DNA of 20,000 nucleotides from Trichomonas gallinae (Eukaryota): the NCBI GenBank assembly GCA_008369845.1, contig MRSU01010726.1, forward strand, positions 47,583 through 67,582. Reading direction: 5' to 3'. A program made the translations under genes and the position numbers. Below the pieces are notes generated by a model. The model made no database searches, was not told where the DNA came from, and was given only the letters and a program-made list of their open reading frames with translations. Shown here one piece after another: positions 3,281 to 19,802 of the stretch; the stretch's first letter is position 1, and each line of letters opens with the position of its first letter.

Positions 3281-3893
3281 TTTTATAATATATTATTTTT
3301 GTTTATATGCCTTATTAATTCCTTTTAATTTGTAAAATATTATTGATTTTCTTTCAATTCGTTTCATTAATTTTGTTTATAATCTACTTTAACAAGATTT
3401 TTTAATTTTTTGGTAATAAAGCCTAATTTAATAAACAAAAATCATACATAATAGAATCTATGTATGTTTAGCTCTTCTATAGATATTGTGTCATTATTAA
3501 ATAAATTGTCGCATATCCTCAAAAAAGTTCGTCATTTTCAAATTTATATAAAATGATGCAAGAAAAATATAATACTGTTAAATTTAACGATATTGTGTAT
3601 TTTAGCATAGTAATACCTGCAGACAGCCTTCTTTATTTAATTCTTTTTGACAAAATCGAAGAGCTTGCTGCTGAAATTGGAAAGGAGAATTTTGACATCA
3701 ATAAGGTAATAATGCAAATATGGCTCAGAAAAATGCTTCTTGTTATTAAAACTCAAAGATGCTTCCATTTCAGAGCAAACACCTATTTATGCCGTCGAAG
3801 GAGGAAATAAAAACATTCTCATTGAATTGTTCAATCGCAATGGATTCGAAATTACAGATAAGCATTTTACTGCTGCATTGAAATATAATCACA

Positions 3894-4070
3894 ATCATTA
3901 CGATAATTAATTCGTCATTTTCAATTGTATTTCATCAAACATATTTGTTTATCATTATATAAGAAATTCATGGATCATATTTGTTATTCATTAAAATAAA
4001 AAACTCATCAACTCCATTTGTTTGTCACTATTAAAATATATTTATCGATCCCATTTGTTCTTATATTTAT
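3894..4070. repeat. 37-bp minisatellite array 1 (~4-5 degenerate units)
   Basis: TTTGTT cores at 3944, 3980, 4017 and 4054 (36-37 bp spacing). Consensus approx. CATTTGTTTATCATTATTATAAGGAATTCATCAATCA. Confidence 0.8.
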
Positions 4071-4121
4071 TATATGACTCCTCTCACAACTGCAATTAAG
4101 ATGAATTCACTGGAAATTGTT

Positions 4122-4459
4122 CATATATTTGTCATTATTATAGCAAATTCATTTACTGCATATGTCTATCTTTGTTATAAAGTATTCTCCAATCAAATTT
4201 GTTTATCATTATTATATAAATATCAACATTATTGCAAACAATCCTTCAATAACATTTCATTATCATTATTAGAATACATTAATCAATCGCATTTGTTCAT
4301 CATTATTATAACATGTTCCTCGACTGTATTTGTTTATCACTCTTATAACTAATTCATCTGTCCCCTTTGTTTATCATTATTAGAAAACATTCATTATTTA
4401 CATTCGTTTAGCTTGACTAGATGAATTTTATCACTGATATTTGTTCTTCATATTATTAT
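4122..4459. repeat. 37-bp minisatellite array 2 (~9 units)
   Basis: Successive 37-nt units, e.g. catatatttgtcattattatagcaaattcatttactg / catatgtctatctttgttataaagtattctccaatca / catttgttcatcattattataacatgttcctcgactg. Confidence 0.85.
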
Positions 4460-4558
4460 ATGACTCCTCTCTCAATATCTATTGAGATGAACTCACTTGA
4501 AATTGTTCAATATCTTGTCGAACATGGTACAGATGTAAACATGATAGAAATTTATCAT

Positions 4559-4908
4559 ATGCACCTGTTTATCATTTTGATCACGAATTCTTCAATCACA
4601 CTTATTTATCATACTTATATGGAACTCATCAATCACATTTGTTTATCTGTTTTATAAGGAATTTATCATTCACATTTGTTTATCAATATTATAAGGAATT
4701 CATCAATCACATTCTTTTCTCATTATTTTTGCCAATTCATCGATTTCATTTGTTTATCATTATTAAACACAATTTATTAAACATATCTGTTTATCATTAT
4801 TATACACAACTAATCAATCACTAATGTACATCATTATAATAACGAAATCATTAATCATCTCCGTTTATCATTATTATATTGGATTCATCAATCAGATTTG
4901 TTTATTAT
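4559..4908. repeat. 37-bp minisatellite array 3 (~9.5 units)
   Basis: Best-conserved array, e.g. catttgtttatctgttttataaggaatttatcattca / catttgtttatcaatattataaggaattcatcaatca; exact 37-nt period through nine units. Confidence 0.9.
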
Positions 4909-5007
4909 TCATATCCACTCTTTAATGCTGTCCCAAAAGCATCTCTTGAAATTATTCAATTCCTTGTTGAATATGATGCAGATGTCAACGCTGAAAATGC
5001 TCATCAA

Positions 5008-5402
5008 TCATATTTATCTATCATTGTTTTAAGGAATTCATCAGTTGCTTATGCTTATCATTATGATAAGAAATTCATTAAGTGCGAATATTTTTCTTTA
5101 TTATAAAAGATTTATCGCTATTAAATAATATATATCAATCACATTTGTTTATCTATATTATTTCCAATTTATCATTATAATAACATATTCGCCAGTCACA
5201 TTTGTTTATCAATAAATTATGGAATTTGTCAAAAATATTTGTTCATCATTATTATAAAAATTCGTCAATTGCAACTGTTAATCAATGCTATAATTGATTT
5301 ATCAATATCATATGTTTATTATCATTATAAGTAATCCACCAATCATATGTTATTCATTATGTTAAAAATATCATCAATCACATTTGTTCATCATTATATT
5401 AA
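5008..5402. repeat. 37-bp minisatellite array 4 (~11 units, some with internal deletions)
   Basis: Same consensus, e.g. tatttatctatcattgttttaaggaattcatcagttg and catttgtttatcaataaattatggaatttgtcaaaaa. Confidence 0.85.
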
Positions 5403-5504
5403 ACTACTCCTCTTTCATTTGCTATTGAAATAGGAAGACCGATGGAAATTGTTCAATTCCTTGTTGAGCATGGTGCCAACGTCAATATGCAAGTATTTCA
5501 TCAA

Positions 5505-5653
5505 TAACAATTGTTTATCAATAATATAAATAATTCACCATTCACCATCGTGTATCAATATTAAAAGCAATTTATCCATCACATTTGTTTATCCTTATTA
5601 TAAGGAATTCATTAACTTCATATGCTTATCATTATTATAAGAAATCACTAAAT
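5505..5653. repeat. 37-bp minisatellite array 5 (~4 units)
   Basis: Same consensus, e.g. catttgtttatccttattataaggaattcattaactt / catatgcttatcattattataagaaatc. Confidence 0.85.
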
Positions 5654-6779
5654 TATTCAATTTTAGATTTAGCTAAGCGCATTGCTCCGGTACAATTTTC
5701 ATATATACAATCAAAAATAAATTGAATGTCATATTACAAGTGATTTCTGGGAAATGGCAATTAAAATTTCCCTATTATTCAGACTAATAAACTTAAGTTT
5801 AAACTCTTATTATTTCAATGAGATATGTTTAACAATTATATTTTCCTTTTGCATTGAACAATTTCCCTCAAACCTTTGGCATATAATTAGACACCATATT
5901 ATTCATCTATACTATAACAAAGTCATAAAGATATTCATTAGCTTAAGAGTTAATGAGACAGTTCTGTTTTTTGACAAAAAAATTATCGAAACAATTCATT
6001 AACAAGTGTAGCTTATTATAGATATCAATCATTTATTTTAATTTAATAGACAGCATGATGACCCATCATTCTATATTAAAGACTCACTAATAGTTCTGGA
6101 AAACATCATTTTAATGGTATATATATTATTTAATTTCTTCATGCATAGAATTGGTGCAGCATGTTGTTGTAAACATGGAGGAATTAATCTTATGTCTATA
6201 CATCCAAGTAACAACAAGATCAAATCTGAGAAACTTTCCGTGAAAATAAGGTTCACCATATTGGTCTTAATAAATGATCGCGAATCTATAGGTTGAATAA
6301 CAATCATAAATTGCTATTTATAGTGGTTACTGATTCTAACTTTCAATCACTGCATCAATTTAATTGATTCCAAAATATGATCTGAAATCAAAATCGTGAA
6401 TAAATGATTTGTGATCGAAAATTGTAAAACTAGTGTAAAATGATATGCAATGGAAAAGTCGACACGATCAAACACACAACGAAAAAAATTTTCGTGAAAT
6501 ATTTCTCGATTAATACATATTAAAAAGCTCAAAAAATGAAATATATGATTTTGAAGACGTCCAATGATCAAATTAAAAAAAAATTATAAAAACATAAATA
6601 AAAGGTTAATCACTCATGGAATAGATAGCTGTGGCTGTATAAAGAGAAATGAAACAGTTGTTGCGATCAGATTCACAAGTTTTGAAAAATATTTTAAACA
6701 TCGAAAATTTTCGATGTATCTCGGGTTAATAATGGTAGATCTGTTGTTTTATTAAAAAAATGAAATATGGTCGGAGACT

Positions 6780-6800: not shown

Positions 6801-7451
6801 ATGTCTGACGCAATCCCACAGGAATACTTAGATCTCCACGAGAAGCGCCTCCAGGAGGTCCTCCAGTACTATGAAAAGGGAGAATGGAAATTATCAAAGG
6901 AAGAACCAACAATCAAATTCTACACAGCTACATACCCAGGCAGCTCATTCTCAATGGTAAAGTCTGTCGTTTCCATTGCAGGAAAGCACGATGAAACAGT
7001 CAAGATCCTAAACACCGTTGGGAAGATCGATGAAAAGACACCAAAGGAAGTTGCTGATGGCACAAAGCTCAGAGAGATCTTCGGCGGTGAAGAGGGTGGT
7101 GCCCGCTACATTTACATGGTCCTCGATTCTGGCTCTCGTCTTGTTTCTAACAGAGAATTCCTTGTTGTCAGAAAGCGCTACGATATTGACACAAAGATCA
7201 TCTGGCTTTGCGTTTCTGTCGACAACACAACAATCAGACCAGTCGGAAAGGGCAATGTTCGTGGCAACATGACATTCCAGGCCTACATCCTTGAAAAGGA
7301 TCCAGATAATGAGGGTGCTGATCGCCTTACATTCATCGTTCATGCTGACCCATGCGGCTCAATCCCAGCTATGGTTTACAACTCTGTTGCTGTTAACCAA
7401 GGAAACGGTGCTCGTAAGATCCGTGATGAAGTTCTTGGCGAGAAGAAATAA
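6801..7451 (+). CDS. START-domain (StAR-related lipid transfer) protein
   Basis: 216-aa ORF with strongly biased codon usage. Motifs: W-K-L..E..IKFY, LVSNREFLVVRKR (cf. VS.RDFV..R), SV....P..KGNVRG and LTFIVHADPCGSIPAMVYN (cf. D.KG.IP...VN). Confidence 0.9.
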   Translation: MSDAIPQEYLDLHEKRLQEVLQYYEKGEWKLSKEEPTIKFYTATYPGSSFSMVKSVVSIAGKHDETVKILNTVGKIDEKTPKEVADGTKLREIFGGEEGGARYIYMVLDSGSRLVSNREFLVVRKRYDIDTKIIWLCVSVDNTTIRPVGKGNVRGNMTFQAYILEKDPDNEGADRLTFIVHADPCGSIPAMVYNSVAVNQGNGARKIRDEVLGEKK

Positions 7452-8438: not shown

Positions 8439-8823
8439 AAAAATATTATTAACACTAGAGTGAAAATCAAATAATTAGCAAAATGATCATTTTACTCATT
8501 TATTCGATTATATAATATCAGATTTATATTATTACATTAAATTAAAAGAATATTTTAATACTTGAAAATAATTTTTTTTCGTTTTTAGACAAGATATGAT
8601 TGTTGCAAGCATTAAAATGTCAATGAAATTGTTGATAATGATCATTGGATTAGATTTCTAAATTATTATAATTTTAGGAAATTACAATCTTTTTAAAGAA
8701 AAATCAATGACAACAATGATCAATTTCTTTATGGTTTTACATGCATTTGATGAAAACTTTAGAATTGAAAAATTCAATATATTGGGGTTTATAGTCATCA
8801 CCGTTTTTATTGGAATCACCATG

Positions 8824-8901
8824 ACTTTATTCGAATAAGTTCATTATTCCAAATTCGACTTAATTCCAAATTATAGCACTATTCCAAATTCACTTTATTC
8901 G
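8824..8901. repeat. Short degenerate ~17-18-bp tandem repeat (ATTCCAAATT x3, flanked by ACTTTATTCG x2)
   Basis: ATTCCAAATT at 8846, 8863 and 8881; ACTTTATTCG at 8824 and 8892. Confidence 0.65.
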
Positions 8902-10076: not shown

Positions 10077-10634
10077 TTATCTGAGAGCATTGTACACAAT
10101 GTAGTATATCCACAAAATGAATATTGAAGGATGCTCACGTAAAAATATGTTGACATATCCAGCAATAGGCAAAACACCAATTATTTCAGAATCAATGTTA
10201 GATGTGTTCCAAAAATCTTGTGAGTATAGCCAAATGTCAGTCTTATTGTTGTTATCACCCTTTGATAAAAAAATTGAAATAGTTTCATTTTGGTGGAATT
10301 CTATTTTGCGATGCACGATTTGTGGGACTGAGTCATTCAAAAAATAGATAACTATGTTGCCATTATCAGTCAGCATTGATGATTTTCCTTTTGCTAAAAT
10401 AAAATCTCCTCTTTGAAAAACAGGCATCATTGATCCAGAAAGAACAGCTGATATTGGGTTGTTGCAATTCATTATAAGACACATTATATTGAAATATAAC
10501 AATGGTCGCACAATTAAATCAGCTAAATGAGCAAACCTGAAAAAGATACCCACCATTCCTATATCAGATCTACCGAAAAACATCTTCTTCAGCATAGCGT
10601 CCATTTCAGGATCATAATATCCTCTCTGCAGCAT
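10077..10634 (-). CDS. SEC11: Signal peptidase complex catalytic subunit, SEC11/S26B family
   Basis: ATG at 10634 preceded on the minus strand by Inr TCACT (10646-10642). Motifs PISAVLSGSMMPVFQRGD (catalytic Ser), IVHR (catalytic His), FLSKGDNN and G.LP..GYV.I. Confidence 0.85.
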   Translation of the reverse strand: MLQRGYYDPEMDAMLKKMFFGRSDIGMVGIFFRFAHLADLIVRPLLYFNIMCLIMNCNNPISAVLSGSMMPVFQRGDFILAKGKSSMLTDNGNIVIYFLNDSVPQIVHRKIEFHQNETISIFLSKGDNNNKTDIWLYSQDFWNTSNIDSEIIGVLPIAGYVNIFLREHPSIFILWIYYIVYNALR

Positions 10635-10638
10635 TTTG

Positions 10639-10811
10639 AAAAGTGACAAAAATTCAAAAAGTGTCAAAGATTTGAAATCTAAAAGTTTAAATGTTCAAAA
10701 GTACCAAAGAGCTGAAATCAAAAAGTGACAGAATTCGAAAAGTGTCAAAGCATTGGAATTGAAAAGTGATATATTAAAAAGTGTCAATGTTTGAAAATTC
10801 TAAAAGTGACA
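10639..10811. repeat. ~41-bp tandem repeat (4 units + partial) carrying AAAAGTGAC/AAAAGTGTC motifs in a divergent promoter
   Basis: Units begin at ~10639, 10681, 10721, 10762 and 10802: aaaagtgacaaaaattcaaaaagtgtcaaagatttgaaatct / aaaagtttaaatgttcaaaagtaccaaagagctgaaatca / aaaagtgacagaattcgaaaagtgtcaaagcattggaattg / aaaagtgatatattaaaaagtgtcaatgtttgaaaattct / aaaagtgac. Confidence 0.8.
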
Positions 10812-12599: not shown

Positions 12600-12990
12600 T
12601 CTAAATGTATTGTTTGTATTATAAAAATGGAAATCAATTTTTCACAATGAGTAGCAAAATTAAGTAATAGGATTTCATTATAGATCAGAAAATATATTTA
12701 ATTCTGCTGTGAATATGATCGCAGATTCAAGATATTTTGGCAAAACACGCGACTGTTAATTAAAACTCAAACATCATTTGACAGCACATTAAATCAAAAC
12801 ATATCATTATATGTTTAAGACAATGGCTCTAAATTCCAATATTTGATAAATATATTAGACAAATTTACTACTTAATGAATAAAATGATATGAGCTCTGTG
12901 TATTAATAATTTGATGAGATTTCATGACCTATACTACATTGTATATATCAAAATAAAGTGTGAAAATAATAAATTTAAAATTTTTTAGAG

Positions 12991-13380
12991 AAAATGAGAT
13001 ATTTGTGCTTTATGTTCTATATATGTGCAGTATTACAGGATTTGCAAGGATAATTATACCGATGTCAAATGAATTTTACCGAAGATACACATTTTTCCGA
13101 AAATTTTCCCTATCTTCTTATTATTTTCCGAAACAAGAGTCGGATACCAAAATTGTTTTACTTTTGGCAAGTTGTCTATATATTGAATTAGAAAATGAAC
13201 AAATTCAAATATTCGTGCTTTATTTTCTATATATCTGCAGCATAAGGGGTGTTCACAGATTATTATACTTAAAATTATTTAGAATGAGAAAATTCAAAAT
13301 ATTTTTTAGTAAAAATAAGATATTTGTGCTTTATTTTCCATATATGGGCAGTACAAAGCGATTCACAGAGATTATTCGCA
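12991..13380. repeat. Three dispersed copies of a ~65-70-bp intergenic repeat
   Basis: Core ATATT(T/C)GTGCTTTAT(G/T)TTC(T/C)ATATAT(G/C)(T/G)GCAG at 12999, 13209 and 13320, with similarity extending ~30 nt downstream. Confidence 0.75.
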
Positions 13381-19568: not shown

Positions 19569-19662
19569 TTTTTTACAGAATTTTTAGCAACGAAAAAATT
19601 TTATTTGCGCAAATCTGCTGATAACACGCTAAATGATATAATTAACAAATATTTGTATTTTT

Positions 19663-19802
19663 AAGAAAATTTTGACATATGTCAGATTATAATGTAAACA
19701 TTAAAATGCCAAATTTCATTGAAATATTTCAGAATAAATTTGACAAATGTCAGATTGTCATGAATGAATATTGTAAACGTCAAAATGTCAAAATTTCGAA
19801 AT
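19663..19802. repeat. Degenerate ~70-bp duplication with TGACA-N2-TGTCA palindromes upstream of the EF-hand/WD40 gene
   Basis: TTTGACATATGTCAGATT at 19671 and TTTGACAAATGTCAGATT at 19739, each followed by TGTAAAC....AAAATG.CAAA. Confidence 0.65.

What the first reader, a model, noticed from the sequence alone, without database searches (positions are those of the whole stretch)
4460..5725. Ankyrin repeats split at one fixed codon position by 37-bp satellite arrays: candidate non-canonical introns/intervening sequences
Seen: three complete ankyrin cores (4460-4558, 4909-5007, 5403-5504) and a C-terminal cap (5654-5725) lie in different frames, separated by 350-, 395- and 149-nt blocks of a 37-bp tandem repeat. 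Each block starts in the same register after the ankyrin 'VN' (aac atg ata gaa att tat cat / aac gct gaa aat gct cat caa / aat atg caa gta ttt cat caa). Established: a 33-aa ankyrin repeat has 7 linker residues between N and T-P-L. Excising 4559-4908, 5008-5402 and 5505-5653, each after linker codon 6, gives a stop-free chain of 33, 33 and 34 aa: MTPLSISIEMNSLEIVQYLVEHGTDVNMIEIYH|SYPLFNAVPKASLEIIQFLVEYDADVNAENAHQ|TTPLSFAIEIGRPMEIVQFLVEHGANVNMQVFHQ|YSILDLAKRIAPVQFSYIQSKIN*. Two TAA codons (5400 and 5505) bracket this same junction window from opposite sides. The excised blocks lack GT-AG ends and the ACTAAC..AG branch/3' signal known from trichomonad spliceosomal introns. Inference: either an unrecognised class of repeat-built intervening sequence removed at the RNA or DNA level, or a decayed gene whose ankyrin+satellite unit was amplified.
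Basis: partly seen in the sequence, partly recalled or inferred. Interest (0 to 1): 0.9.

Follow-up and report, generated by a model that had tools for sequence, protein, structure and literature searches.

The report
Minisatellite-spaced ankyrin modules in Trichomonas
In a Trichomonas parasite, a 37-letter DNA repeat sits at the same spot between the ankyrin units of this broken gene and of many related copies; a close relative's probable RNA links ankyrin units without the repeat, so these are likely silent copies spread by recombination, though a new kind of intron is not excluded.

Summary
The structure is real and larger than reported. Five arrays of a degenerate 37-bp unit (about 38 units, 3896-5653) separate a broken N-terminal domain, a truncated repeat, three ankyrin cores and a cap in a Trichomonas gene. 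DNA contigs of a related lineage hold the orthologous arrays and many further core-array junctions in the same register (5' side 6 of 6, 3' side 5 of 7), so this is a genome-wide family. The intron reading is not supported. Trichomonad splice motifs and end-pairing are absent, the last 9-13 nt of each proposed exon are array sequence, and 35 of 171 cut pairs are equally stop-free. In a probable RNA run of a close relative all 11 ankyrin joints land in a core, and the 10 core exits lie 10 nt before to 6 nt after the N codon, never at the predicted +18. Those contigs are paralogues; this locus itself was not tested. Best reading: silent array-linked ankyrin copies spread by recombination, this one decaying (0.5). 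Unexplained: the cores show purifying selection and no stop in 235 codons beside arrays 20% from consensus, which keeps a donor archive (0.2) and non-canonical splicing (0.15) alive.

The parts
3553..3895 (+). Broken N-terminal domain of the kind that precedes ankyrin repeats in parabasalid proteins (DUF3447-like, label inferred); frameshift at about 3712 with an apparent internal deletion; cut off by the array at 3896
   Evidence: Two stop-free pieces of 53 and 61 codons in different frames; no Pfam hit; second piece matches P0121 residues 194-227, E 7e-7 pairwise; P0121 has about 30 more residues between the matching motifs and continues past the cut; an X2 contig leaves at 3895 and re-enters in an ankyrin core
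3896..4073 (+). 37-bp array Jn, about 4.8 units, 79% identical to consensus
4074..4133 (+). Truncated ankyrin repeat A0 (first helix and start of second; runs into the array)
   Evidence: 47 of 62 nt identical to the core at 4460
4134..4459 (+). 37-bp array J0, about 8.8 units, 76% to consensus; orthologous piece present in run X1
   Evidence: table 8 record 1
4460..4549 (+). Ankyrin core A1 plus about three linker codons
   Evidence: PF00023 23.9 bits, cut-off 21.1; boundary
4550..4908 (+). 37-bp array J1, about 9.7 units, 81% to consensus; 3' junction 8 nt short of the usual register
4909..4998 (+). Divergent ankyrin core A2 plus about three linker codons
   Evidence: PF00023 15 bits, below cut-off; aligns with A1 and A3
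4999..5402 (+). 37-bp array J2, about 10.9 units, 77% to consensus; the X1 orthologue is about 39 nt longer
   Evidence: table 8 record 3
5403..5495 (+). Ankyrin core A3 (one extra codon) plus about three linker codons
   Evidence: PF00023 26.5 bits; X1 orthologous piece 5378-5533 has 10 differences and no gap
5496..5653 (+). 37-bp array J3, about 4.3 units, 81% to consensus; 3' junction 13 nt beyond the usual register
5654..5725 (+). C-terminal cap-like segment, 23 codons and TGA
   Evidence: no Pfam hit; X1 orthologous piece 5644-5794 has 12 differences and no gap

Best explanation
A high-copy 37-bp minisatellite sits in a fixed register in the linkers between the ankyrin repeats of this Trichomonas gene and of many related copies, and these array-bearing copies are likely silent by-products that spread by recombination while array-free paralogues likely supply the transcripts. 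Shown: the arrays, their fixed register at both ends, their presence at the orthologous locus and at many other loci of a related lineage, three lesions in the 5' half of this copy, and array-free core-to-core contigs in a probable RNA run of a close relative. Inferred: one junction arose once, probably at the short shared word TAAG(A) that ends the repeat unit and occurs in the native linker, replacing about two linker codons. It was then copied by exchange between homologous cores (which carries an array with both its junctions into another linker) and between arrays of different loci (which shuffles modules and mixes units). The selection signal in the cores would then date from their life in intact genes or from later conversion by intact paralogues. 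Inferred also: this copy is dead or dying.
For: Register: 21 nt after the N codon in 6 of 6 measurable junctions, 25 nt from unit start to the T codon in 5 of 7. Family size in X1 DNA: 1373 contigs lay on 3300-6000; mean depth per contig against about 27 for single-copy pieces gives rough floors of about 500 copies for one array word, about 40 for a core word and about 20 for a core-tail word. Of the X1 joints shown that touch a core, 7 of 7 lead into or out of array (tables 5, 5c; 97 and 65 rows not shown). X2 is a close relative (7 of 8 listed pieces on neighbouring genes differ by 1.4-6.4%, one paralogous piece by 16%). Its joint table is complete: 11 of 13 joints concern this locus, all 11 land in a core, and the 10 core exits lie at -10 to +6 nt from the N codon, whereas stop-free linkers of 6 or more codons need 13 or more nt of the tail and X1 DNA contigs do run through that tail (depth 8300 at 5486, 8769 at 5506). 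The one X2 linker read in full (6 codons) shares its first three and last codon with X1 array-bearing junctions and has a purine-rich middle seen in none of them. X1 and X2 cores carry the same variant letters at 4478, 4492 and 4529, so the two classes are not long-separated lineages. Units are as unlike within arrays (0.654) as between them (0.650), with no block copying among the five arrays. No splice motif, no shared canonical ends, no end-pairing. Two of seven 3' junctions are off register. Trichomonas vaginalis is known to carry many pseudogenes (PMC4223856, abstract).
Against: The cores look selected for longer than a copy dead since its arrays began to diverge should: A1-A3 pS 0.60, pN 0.18; A0-A1 pS 0.35, pN 0.12, both below the 0.35 difference between array units (P 0.004 and 0.003; the other three pairs tested were not below it, and A0-A2, pN 0.40, was not tested). 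No stop in 235 codons: P 0.003 at full array divergence, 0.037 at half, 0.13 at 30%. So the arrays must have arrived already diverged, or the cores must have been refreshed, in all five positions; neither is shown. No long non-orthologous piece that could be a recent donor appears among the 8 X1 pieces listed of more than 1600. Silence is inferred from paralogues in one run whose RNA status is a guess; if array-bearing genes made a tenth of such joints, 0 of 10 has P 0.35. Linkers of 2-4 codons would need only 1-12 nt of tail and are not excluded by the exit positions.
Confidence: 0.5

Rival explanations
1. Silent donor archive: the array-spaced single ankyrin modules are a functional reservoir that exchanges cores with expressed array-free genes by gene conversion, diversifying them, with the arrays acting as recombination or silencing spacers, in the manner of the trypanosome VSG archive.
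For: One module per array in fixed register; cores stop-free and with dN/dS 0.17-0.69; shared variant letters between high-depth X1 DNA cores and X2 cores; 5' lesions would be tolerated in a donor.
Against: No conversion event was shown. The X2 core-to-core contigs contain no array between cores, so recipients would lack the repeat, unlike the 70-bp repeats present at both VSG donor and acceptor (PMC4858185, abstract). The N-terminal pieces and the cap with its stop are also stop-free, which a donor would not need.
Confidence: 0.2
2. Non-canonical introns: the arrays are removed from the pre-mRNA by an unrecognised route, one ankyrin repeat per exon, leaving 13-18 nt of array-like tail in each linker; the gene worked with its arrays in place until this copy was recently damaged.
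For: Explains without extra steps the fixed register, an array in every linker, purifying selection and no stop in 235 codons beside old arrays. The X1 orthologue keeps frame in the A3 and cap pieces (no gaps) with 6.4% and 7.9% differences against 11.2% in array J2 and 14.8% intergenic. The published Trichomonas pipeline discarded 99.7% of questionable junctions for lacking the known motifs (PMC12316389, results read), so such introns could have been missed. Exon junctions are enriched in repeat linkers generally (PMC1553488, passages).
Against: 0 of 10 X2 core exits reach the required tail. No branch or 3' motif; no GT/GC-AG option at J2, only 12- and 14-codon linkers at J1, one motif-less option at J3. 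Arrays fold no better than shuffles (z +2.33, +1.22, -0.80). Two of seven 3' junctions are shifted by -8 and +13 nt. The orthologue contrast is not robust: P 0.018 without, 0.17 with the J0 piece, 0.45 against arrays alone. Known Trichomonas introns are 23-196 nt and one per gene in T. vaginalis (PMC12316389).
Confidence: 0.15
3. DNA-level excision: recombination between the first and last partial units removes an array in register in some cells; a usual-register spacer of 37n+46 nt would leave 9 nt, in frame, and a 29-residue repeat.
For: Spacer arithmetic: the J2 spacer is 416 = 9 + 11 x 37 nt.
Against: J1 (371 nt) and J3 (170 nt) do not fit. The one X2 linker read in full has 18 nt. No core-to-core joint is among the X1 DNA rows shown (most rows hidden). 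I recall no programmed DNA elimination in trichomonads (from memory).
Confidence: 0.05
4. Assembly artefact: the arrays were mis-joined between ankyrin pieces.
For: Repeat-rich region; no reads of the source isolate were available.
Against: Independent single-copy contigs of run X1 bridge array and core at the orthologous place (4191-4525; 5001-5348 with 5378-5533 on one 678-nt record), and a 135-nt contig at about ten-fold depth spans array end, core and tail.
Confidence: 0.02

Closest known systems
Trichomonad spliceosomal introns, types A and B (PMC12316389; abstract, introduction, first results sections and passages read)
   Same: AT-rich intervening sequence in a Trichomonas gene; three T. 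vaginalis ankyrin-domain genes carry an intron; each array unit happens to hold a GTTTAT word that fits the loose type B 5' motif.
   Different: No branch or 3' motif, no usable GT-AG pairs at two of three junctions, 150-400 nt, tandem-repeat build, five per gene, no RNA support.
Amoebophrya non-canonical introns and introner elements (PMC7789003, passages); euglenid nonconventional introns (PMC11170887, search listing only)
   Same: Repeated intervening elements without GT-AG ends, with short direct repeats at the borders.
   Different: Those are RNA-supported and have terminal inverted repeats or hairpins; these arrays fold no better than shuffles, are tandem arrays and occupy one site in one protein family.
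Trypanosoma brucei 70-bp repeats beside silent VSG genes (PMC4858185, abstract)
   Same: Degenerate AT-rich repeat arrays next to coding modules of a large family in a parasite; a possible role in recombination.
   Different: The 70-bp repeats flank whole genes and occur at the expression site too; here arrays sit inside a gene between single repeats, the probable transcripts lack them, and no conversion is shown.
Trichomonas vaginalis pseudogenised multigene families (PMC4223856, abstract; PMC2914791, search listing)
   Same: Massive duplication with decayed copies beside intact ones.
   Different: Decay here goes with a site-fixed minisatellite in every linker rather than with stops; no such repeat turned up in the papers searched.
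Earlier scan note e1-682814 (Naegleria ankyrin exon array with introns built from a 41-base unit; AI note, unchecked)
   Same: One ankyrin repeat per coding unit separated by arrays of a short unit.
   Different: That note reports full splice signals in the unit; none are found here.

Membership tests
Trichomonad spliceosomal intron (type A or B) | GT-AG ends that restore the reading frame | tested here: not met
   none at J2; at J1 only with 12- or 14-codon linkers; one option at J3 (7 codons).
Trichomonad spliceosomal intron (type A or B) | Branch site fused to the 3' end (RCTAACACAYAG or TCTAACH1-2AACAG) | tested here: not met
   0 matches on the + strand of 3500-5800; RCTAAC occurs twice in the window, neither in the locus.
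Trichomonad spliceosomal intron (type A or B) | Length 23-196 nt | tested here: not met
   Arrays J0, J1, J2 are 326-404 nt; Jn and J3 are within range (range from PMC12316389).
Trichomonad spliceosomal intron (type A or B) | Removal shown in RNA | tested here: inconclusive
   Paralogous X2 contigs show no such junction (0 of 10 exits); no contig of this locus itself bridges a junction.
Introner-type or euglenid-type non-canonical intron | Terminal inverted repeats or a stem that brings the ends together | tested here: not met
   Folding z-scores +2.33, +1.22, -0.80.
Introner-type or euglenid-type non-canonical intron | Repeated family across the genome | tested here: met
   high-depth array contigs and repeated core-array junctions in X1.
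Introner-type or euglenid-type non-canonical intron | Splice junctions supported by RNA reads | tested here: inconclusive
   As above; only contigs of one probable RNA run of a relative held ankyrin cores.
Minisatellite / VNTR | Head-to-tail units of 10-100 bp | tested here: met
   37-bp period, about 38 units.
Minisatellite / VNTR | Length variation between lineages | tested here: met
   X1 orthologue of J2 has about 39 nt more between window 5348 and 5378 (record 3).
Minisatellite / VNTR | Non-coding | tested here: met
   37 is not a multiple of 3 and stops occur in all frames across the arrays; no protein relative among 1.84 billion representatives; no Rfam match.
Ankyrin repeat (PF00023) | Score above the curated cut-off | tested here: met
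   A1 and A3 pass; A2 does not but aligns with them.
DUF3447-type N-terminal domain (PF11929; name recalled) | Profile match | tested here: inconclusive
   No Pfam hit on either piece; pairwise match to the N-terminal region of P0121, which carries PF11929 among its precomputed domains.
VSG-type silent archive with flanking repeats | Same repeat at donor and expressed acceptor | tested here: inconclusive
   X2 core-to-core contigs have no array between cores; flanks of the expressed genes were not seen.
VSG-type silent archive with flanking repeats | Gene conversion from donor to expressed gene | not testable with these tools
   No assembly or paralogue sequences could be retrieved.

The most novel reading that the evidence does not exclude
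Trichomonas lineages carry an unrecognised class of motif-less, hairpin-less introns built from a 37-bp minisatellite, one in every linker of a large ankyrin gene family, removed by a route other than the known trichomonad spliceosomal signals and overlooked because published pipelines discard junctions without those signals.
Probability: 0.15. Interest if true: 0.9.

Novelty: new variant of a known kind. Interest (0 to 1): 0.56.

Why it matters
If the best reading holds, a minisatellite has colonised one exact site of a protein repeat across a whole gene family and has persisted across lineages, which is an unusual route of repeat spread and a trap for annotation of trichomonad ankyrin families. 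If the cores stayed under selection with arrays in place, the organism has either a silent archive of ankyrin modules or a new way to remove intervening sequence, in a genus thought to have under a hundred introns with rigid motifs. One assembly plus long-read RNA separates the three.

Tried and rejected
No whole genome was held, so the genome-wide census could not be run. No RNA holder on record was listed for the stretch; X2 is a guessed RNA run. X2 left the array-only bins and the cap without cover, but it also left two neighbouring genes uncovered, so the blank is not used as evidence. X3 laid nothing; X4 laid one 67-nt array contig at depth 3.5, which may be DNA carry-over. Exact-pattern scans for the unit found nothing in metagenome contigs, viral contigs or prokaryote genomes. 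A core with array-derived flanks found no longer homologue; a profile of the four cores returned 374 general ankyrins, none of this subfamily among the 120 listed; a translation of the array found nothing. The protein atlas did not answer on five tries. Rejected: array derived from the ankyrin coding sequence (local alignment no better than shuffles, P 0.24-0.60); arrays copied as blocks within the locus (10 of 10 pairs not significant); known RNA family; structured intron. The orthologue conservation test is inconclusive once the J0 piece is included. The frameshift expectation from array indels (2.0 events in A1-A3 plus cap, P(0) 0.14) is inflated because 4 of 9 array indels are one recurrent 17-nt deletion. 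Summed contig depth was not taken as copy number; only rough floors are given. Look-ups of earlier findings by sequence, place and two word sets found nothing on this locus.

Full report
Setting. The window encodes a START-domain protein, a bromodomain protein, a two-repeat Myb protein, a PQ-loop protein and a WD40 protein. The START protein is 72-74% identical to Trichomonas vaginalis paralogues and 95% identical (11 of 216 residues differ) to an unnamed Logan protein. The organism is therefore a Trichomonas; the species was not determined. No whole genome was held.

Observation. The three cores, the cap, the block lengths, the stop-free joined chain and the two TAA codons are in the sequence. 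Two cores pass the Pfam ankyrin cut-off and the middle one does not. The repeat has a 37-bp period; 39 of 42 forward consensus hits in the window lie in 3905-5655. The locus is larger than reported: five arrays of about 4.8, 8.8, 9.7, 10.9 and 4.3 units, 76-81% identical to consensus, a truncated repeat at 4074-4133, and an N-terminal domain at 3553-3895. That domain changes frame at about 3712, lacks roughly 30 residues there by comparison with P0121, and is cut off by the first array. This copy therefore has three lesions in its 5' half.

Register. From the end of the N codon to the next unit start there are 21 nt in 3 of 3 window junctions and 3 of 3 measurable X1 junctions. From the last unit start to the T codon there are 25 nt in 5 of 7 junctions; the junction into A2 has 17 and the one into the cap 38. 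Letters 10-18 of each proposed exon tail match the array consensus at 7, 7 and 8 of 9, and two X1 contigs pass from array straight into those tails at 5001 and 5497.

The stop-free join is weak evidence. Of 171 combinations of linker length (2-10 codons) and cut position, 35 are stop-free at all three junctions. Linkers of 6 or more codons need at least 13 nt of the tail. No cut gives shared canonical ends. There is no GT/GC-AG option at J2, only 12- and 14-codon options at J1, and one 7-codon option without a branch motif at J3; the published trichomonad 3' motifs have no match in 3500-5800 (motifs from PMC12316389). The arrays fold no better than shuffles and match no Rfam family.

DNA of a related lineage. 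Four runs were listed. Run X1 (guessed DNA, bird metagenome by its label) holds single-copy pieces at depth 22-28, among them pieces orthologous to 4191-4525 (20 differences, 17 gap letters), 5001-5348 (39 of 348), 5378-5533 (10 of 156), 5644-5794 (12 of 151) and 5838-5999 (24 of 162). The arrays thus predate the split of the two lineages and are not an assembly error; J2 is about one unit longer in X1. In all, 1373 X1 contigs lay on 3300-6000. Summed depth is no copy number, but mean depth per contig gives rough floors of about 500 copies for one array word, about 40 for a core word and about 20 for a core-tail word. A 135-nt contig at depth 262 spans array end, core and tail. Of the X1 joints shown that touch a core, 7 of 7 lead into or out of array; 97 joint rows and 65 rows of in-between letters were not shown.

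Probable RNA of a close relative. Run X2 is RNA by guess only; its contig depths on neighbouring genes range from 4 to 621, a hint of RNA. Seven of 8 listed pieces differ from the window by 1.4-6.4%, one paralogous piece by 16%. Its joint table shows all 13 joints: 11 concern this locus, one from the N-terminal domain at 3895 and ten from a core, and all 11 land in a core. The ten exits lie at -10 to +6 nt from the N codon, not at +13 to +18. X1 contigs do align through the tail (depth 8300 at 5486, 8769 at 5506), so the aligner would have followed such a tail. The single X2 linker read in full has six codons (M K V R D K); its first three codons match an X1 core-to-array junction, its last codon matches an X1 array-to-core junction, and the two purine-rich codons between them match no array-bearing junction seen. 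It reads like the allele without an insertion. Limits: these are paralogues of 80% identity or more, one run, contigs only, 31 loose-end rows hidden; P(0 of 10) is 0.001 if array-bearing genes made half of such joints but 0.35 if a tenth. If X2 is DNA of an organism without arrays, it still shows array-free genes of this family and gives no support to splicing.

What does not fit simple decay. Array units differ from each other by 35%, equally within and between arrays, and X1 shows that near-identical units exist, so these arrays are old. Yet the cores show dN/dS of 0.17-0.69 in 6 pairs; pN is 0.18 for A1-A3 and 0.12 for A0-A1, below 0.35 at P 0.004 and 0.003, while three other pairs are not below it. 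The 235 codons hold no stop; 5.6 are expected at the array's divergence from consensus (P 0.003), 3.2 at half, 2.0 at 30% (P 0.13). For A1-A3 and the cap alone the P values are 0.08, 0.24 and 0.41, and the window was picked for its clean cores. Conservation since the X1 split is inconclusive (P 0.018, 0.17 or 0.45 by the comparison set). So either the arrays came late and already diverged, or the cores were refreshed from intact genes, or the gene worked with arrays in place.

Mechanism. I commit to spread by recombination with silent copies (0.5). Shown: fixed register, high copy number, orthologous arrays, lesions, array-free core-to-core contigs, shared core variants between X1 and X2. Inferred: origin at a TAAG(A) word shared by the unit end and the native linker; copying of array plus both junctions by exchange between homologous cores; mixing of units by exchange between arrays; silence. 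Rivals: a functional donor archive (0.2), non-canonical splicing (0.15), DNA excision in register (0.05), artefact (0.02); the rest is unassigned.

Comparison with what is known. It fails the membership tests for trichomonad spliceosomal introns (PMC12316389: abstract, introduction, parts 1-2 of 7 and passages read) and for hairpin-type non-canonical introns (PMC7789003, passages). It is a minisatellite by every test made. It resembles the VSG 70-bp repeat arrangement only loosely (PMC4858185, abstract). A long-read study reports that predicted multi-intron candidates in T. vaginalis could not be confirmed by PCR (PMC13548475, passages). Stop-codon readthrough reported in Trichomonas (bioRxiv 10.64898/2026.08.31.748405, abstract) cannot bridge frame-shifting arrays. 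Searches for such a repeat in print: ankyrin + intron + trichomonad + tandem repeat, 0 papers; trichomonas + satellite DNA + ankyrin, 0; Trichomonas gallinae + genome + ankyrin + repeat, 4 listed, none on this by title or abstract start. The comparative genomics paper PMC12289875 has no mention of satellite or ankyrin in its main text and no mention of satellite or tandem repeat in 8 supplementary files, one of them cut. Supplements of the other papers were not read, those of preprints are closed, and subscription papers are not in the library, so novelty is not proven.

Verdict. A real, unusual and apparently undescribed arrangement, most likely a site-fixed minisatellite in a partly decayed ankyrin family: a new variant of a known kind, interest 0.56. 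The intron reading remains possible at about 0.15 and is directly testable.

Noticed in passing
window arrays Jn, J0, J2 (3896-5402): Four of nine indels in the arrays are the same 17-nt deletion, which fits slippage between two similar words inside the unit; both coding-to-array breaks (3896, 4134) also join at about unit position 12-13.
   Followed up: partly
window 10639-10807: A second degenerate minisatellite, period 40-41, about 4 copies, between two divergently oriented reading frames.
   Followed up: no
window 12977-13376: Three copies of a 79-nt or longer non-coding repeat at spacings of 210 and 111 nt.
   Followed up: no
window about 5920-5980: Four X1 contigs of raised depth end here with long loose ends, suggesting a piece of a dispersed repeat downstream of the ankyrin locus.
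   Followed up: no
window 8823-8901: A 35-bp tandem repeat (2.3 copies); an X2 contig changes strand between 8838 and 8894.
   Followed up: no
window 10080-10631, minus strand: Reading frame that looks by eye like a signal-peptidase subunit (impression from memory); no Pfam hit.
   Followed up: partly
window 6801-7451: START-domain gene, G+C-rich for this window, with the deepest X2 contig among the neighbouring genes listed (depth 621) and paralogous loose ends.
   Followed up: partly
window 19659-19796: Short direct and inverted repeats upstream of the WD40 gene.
   Followed up: no
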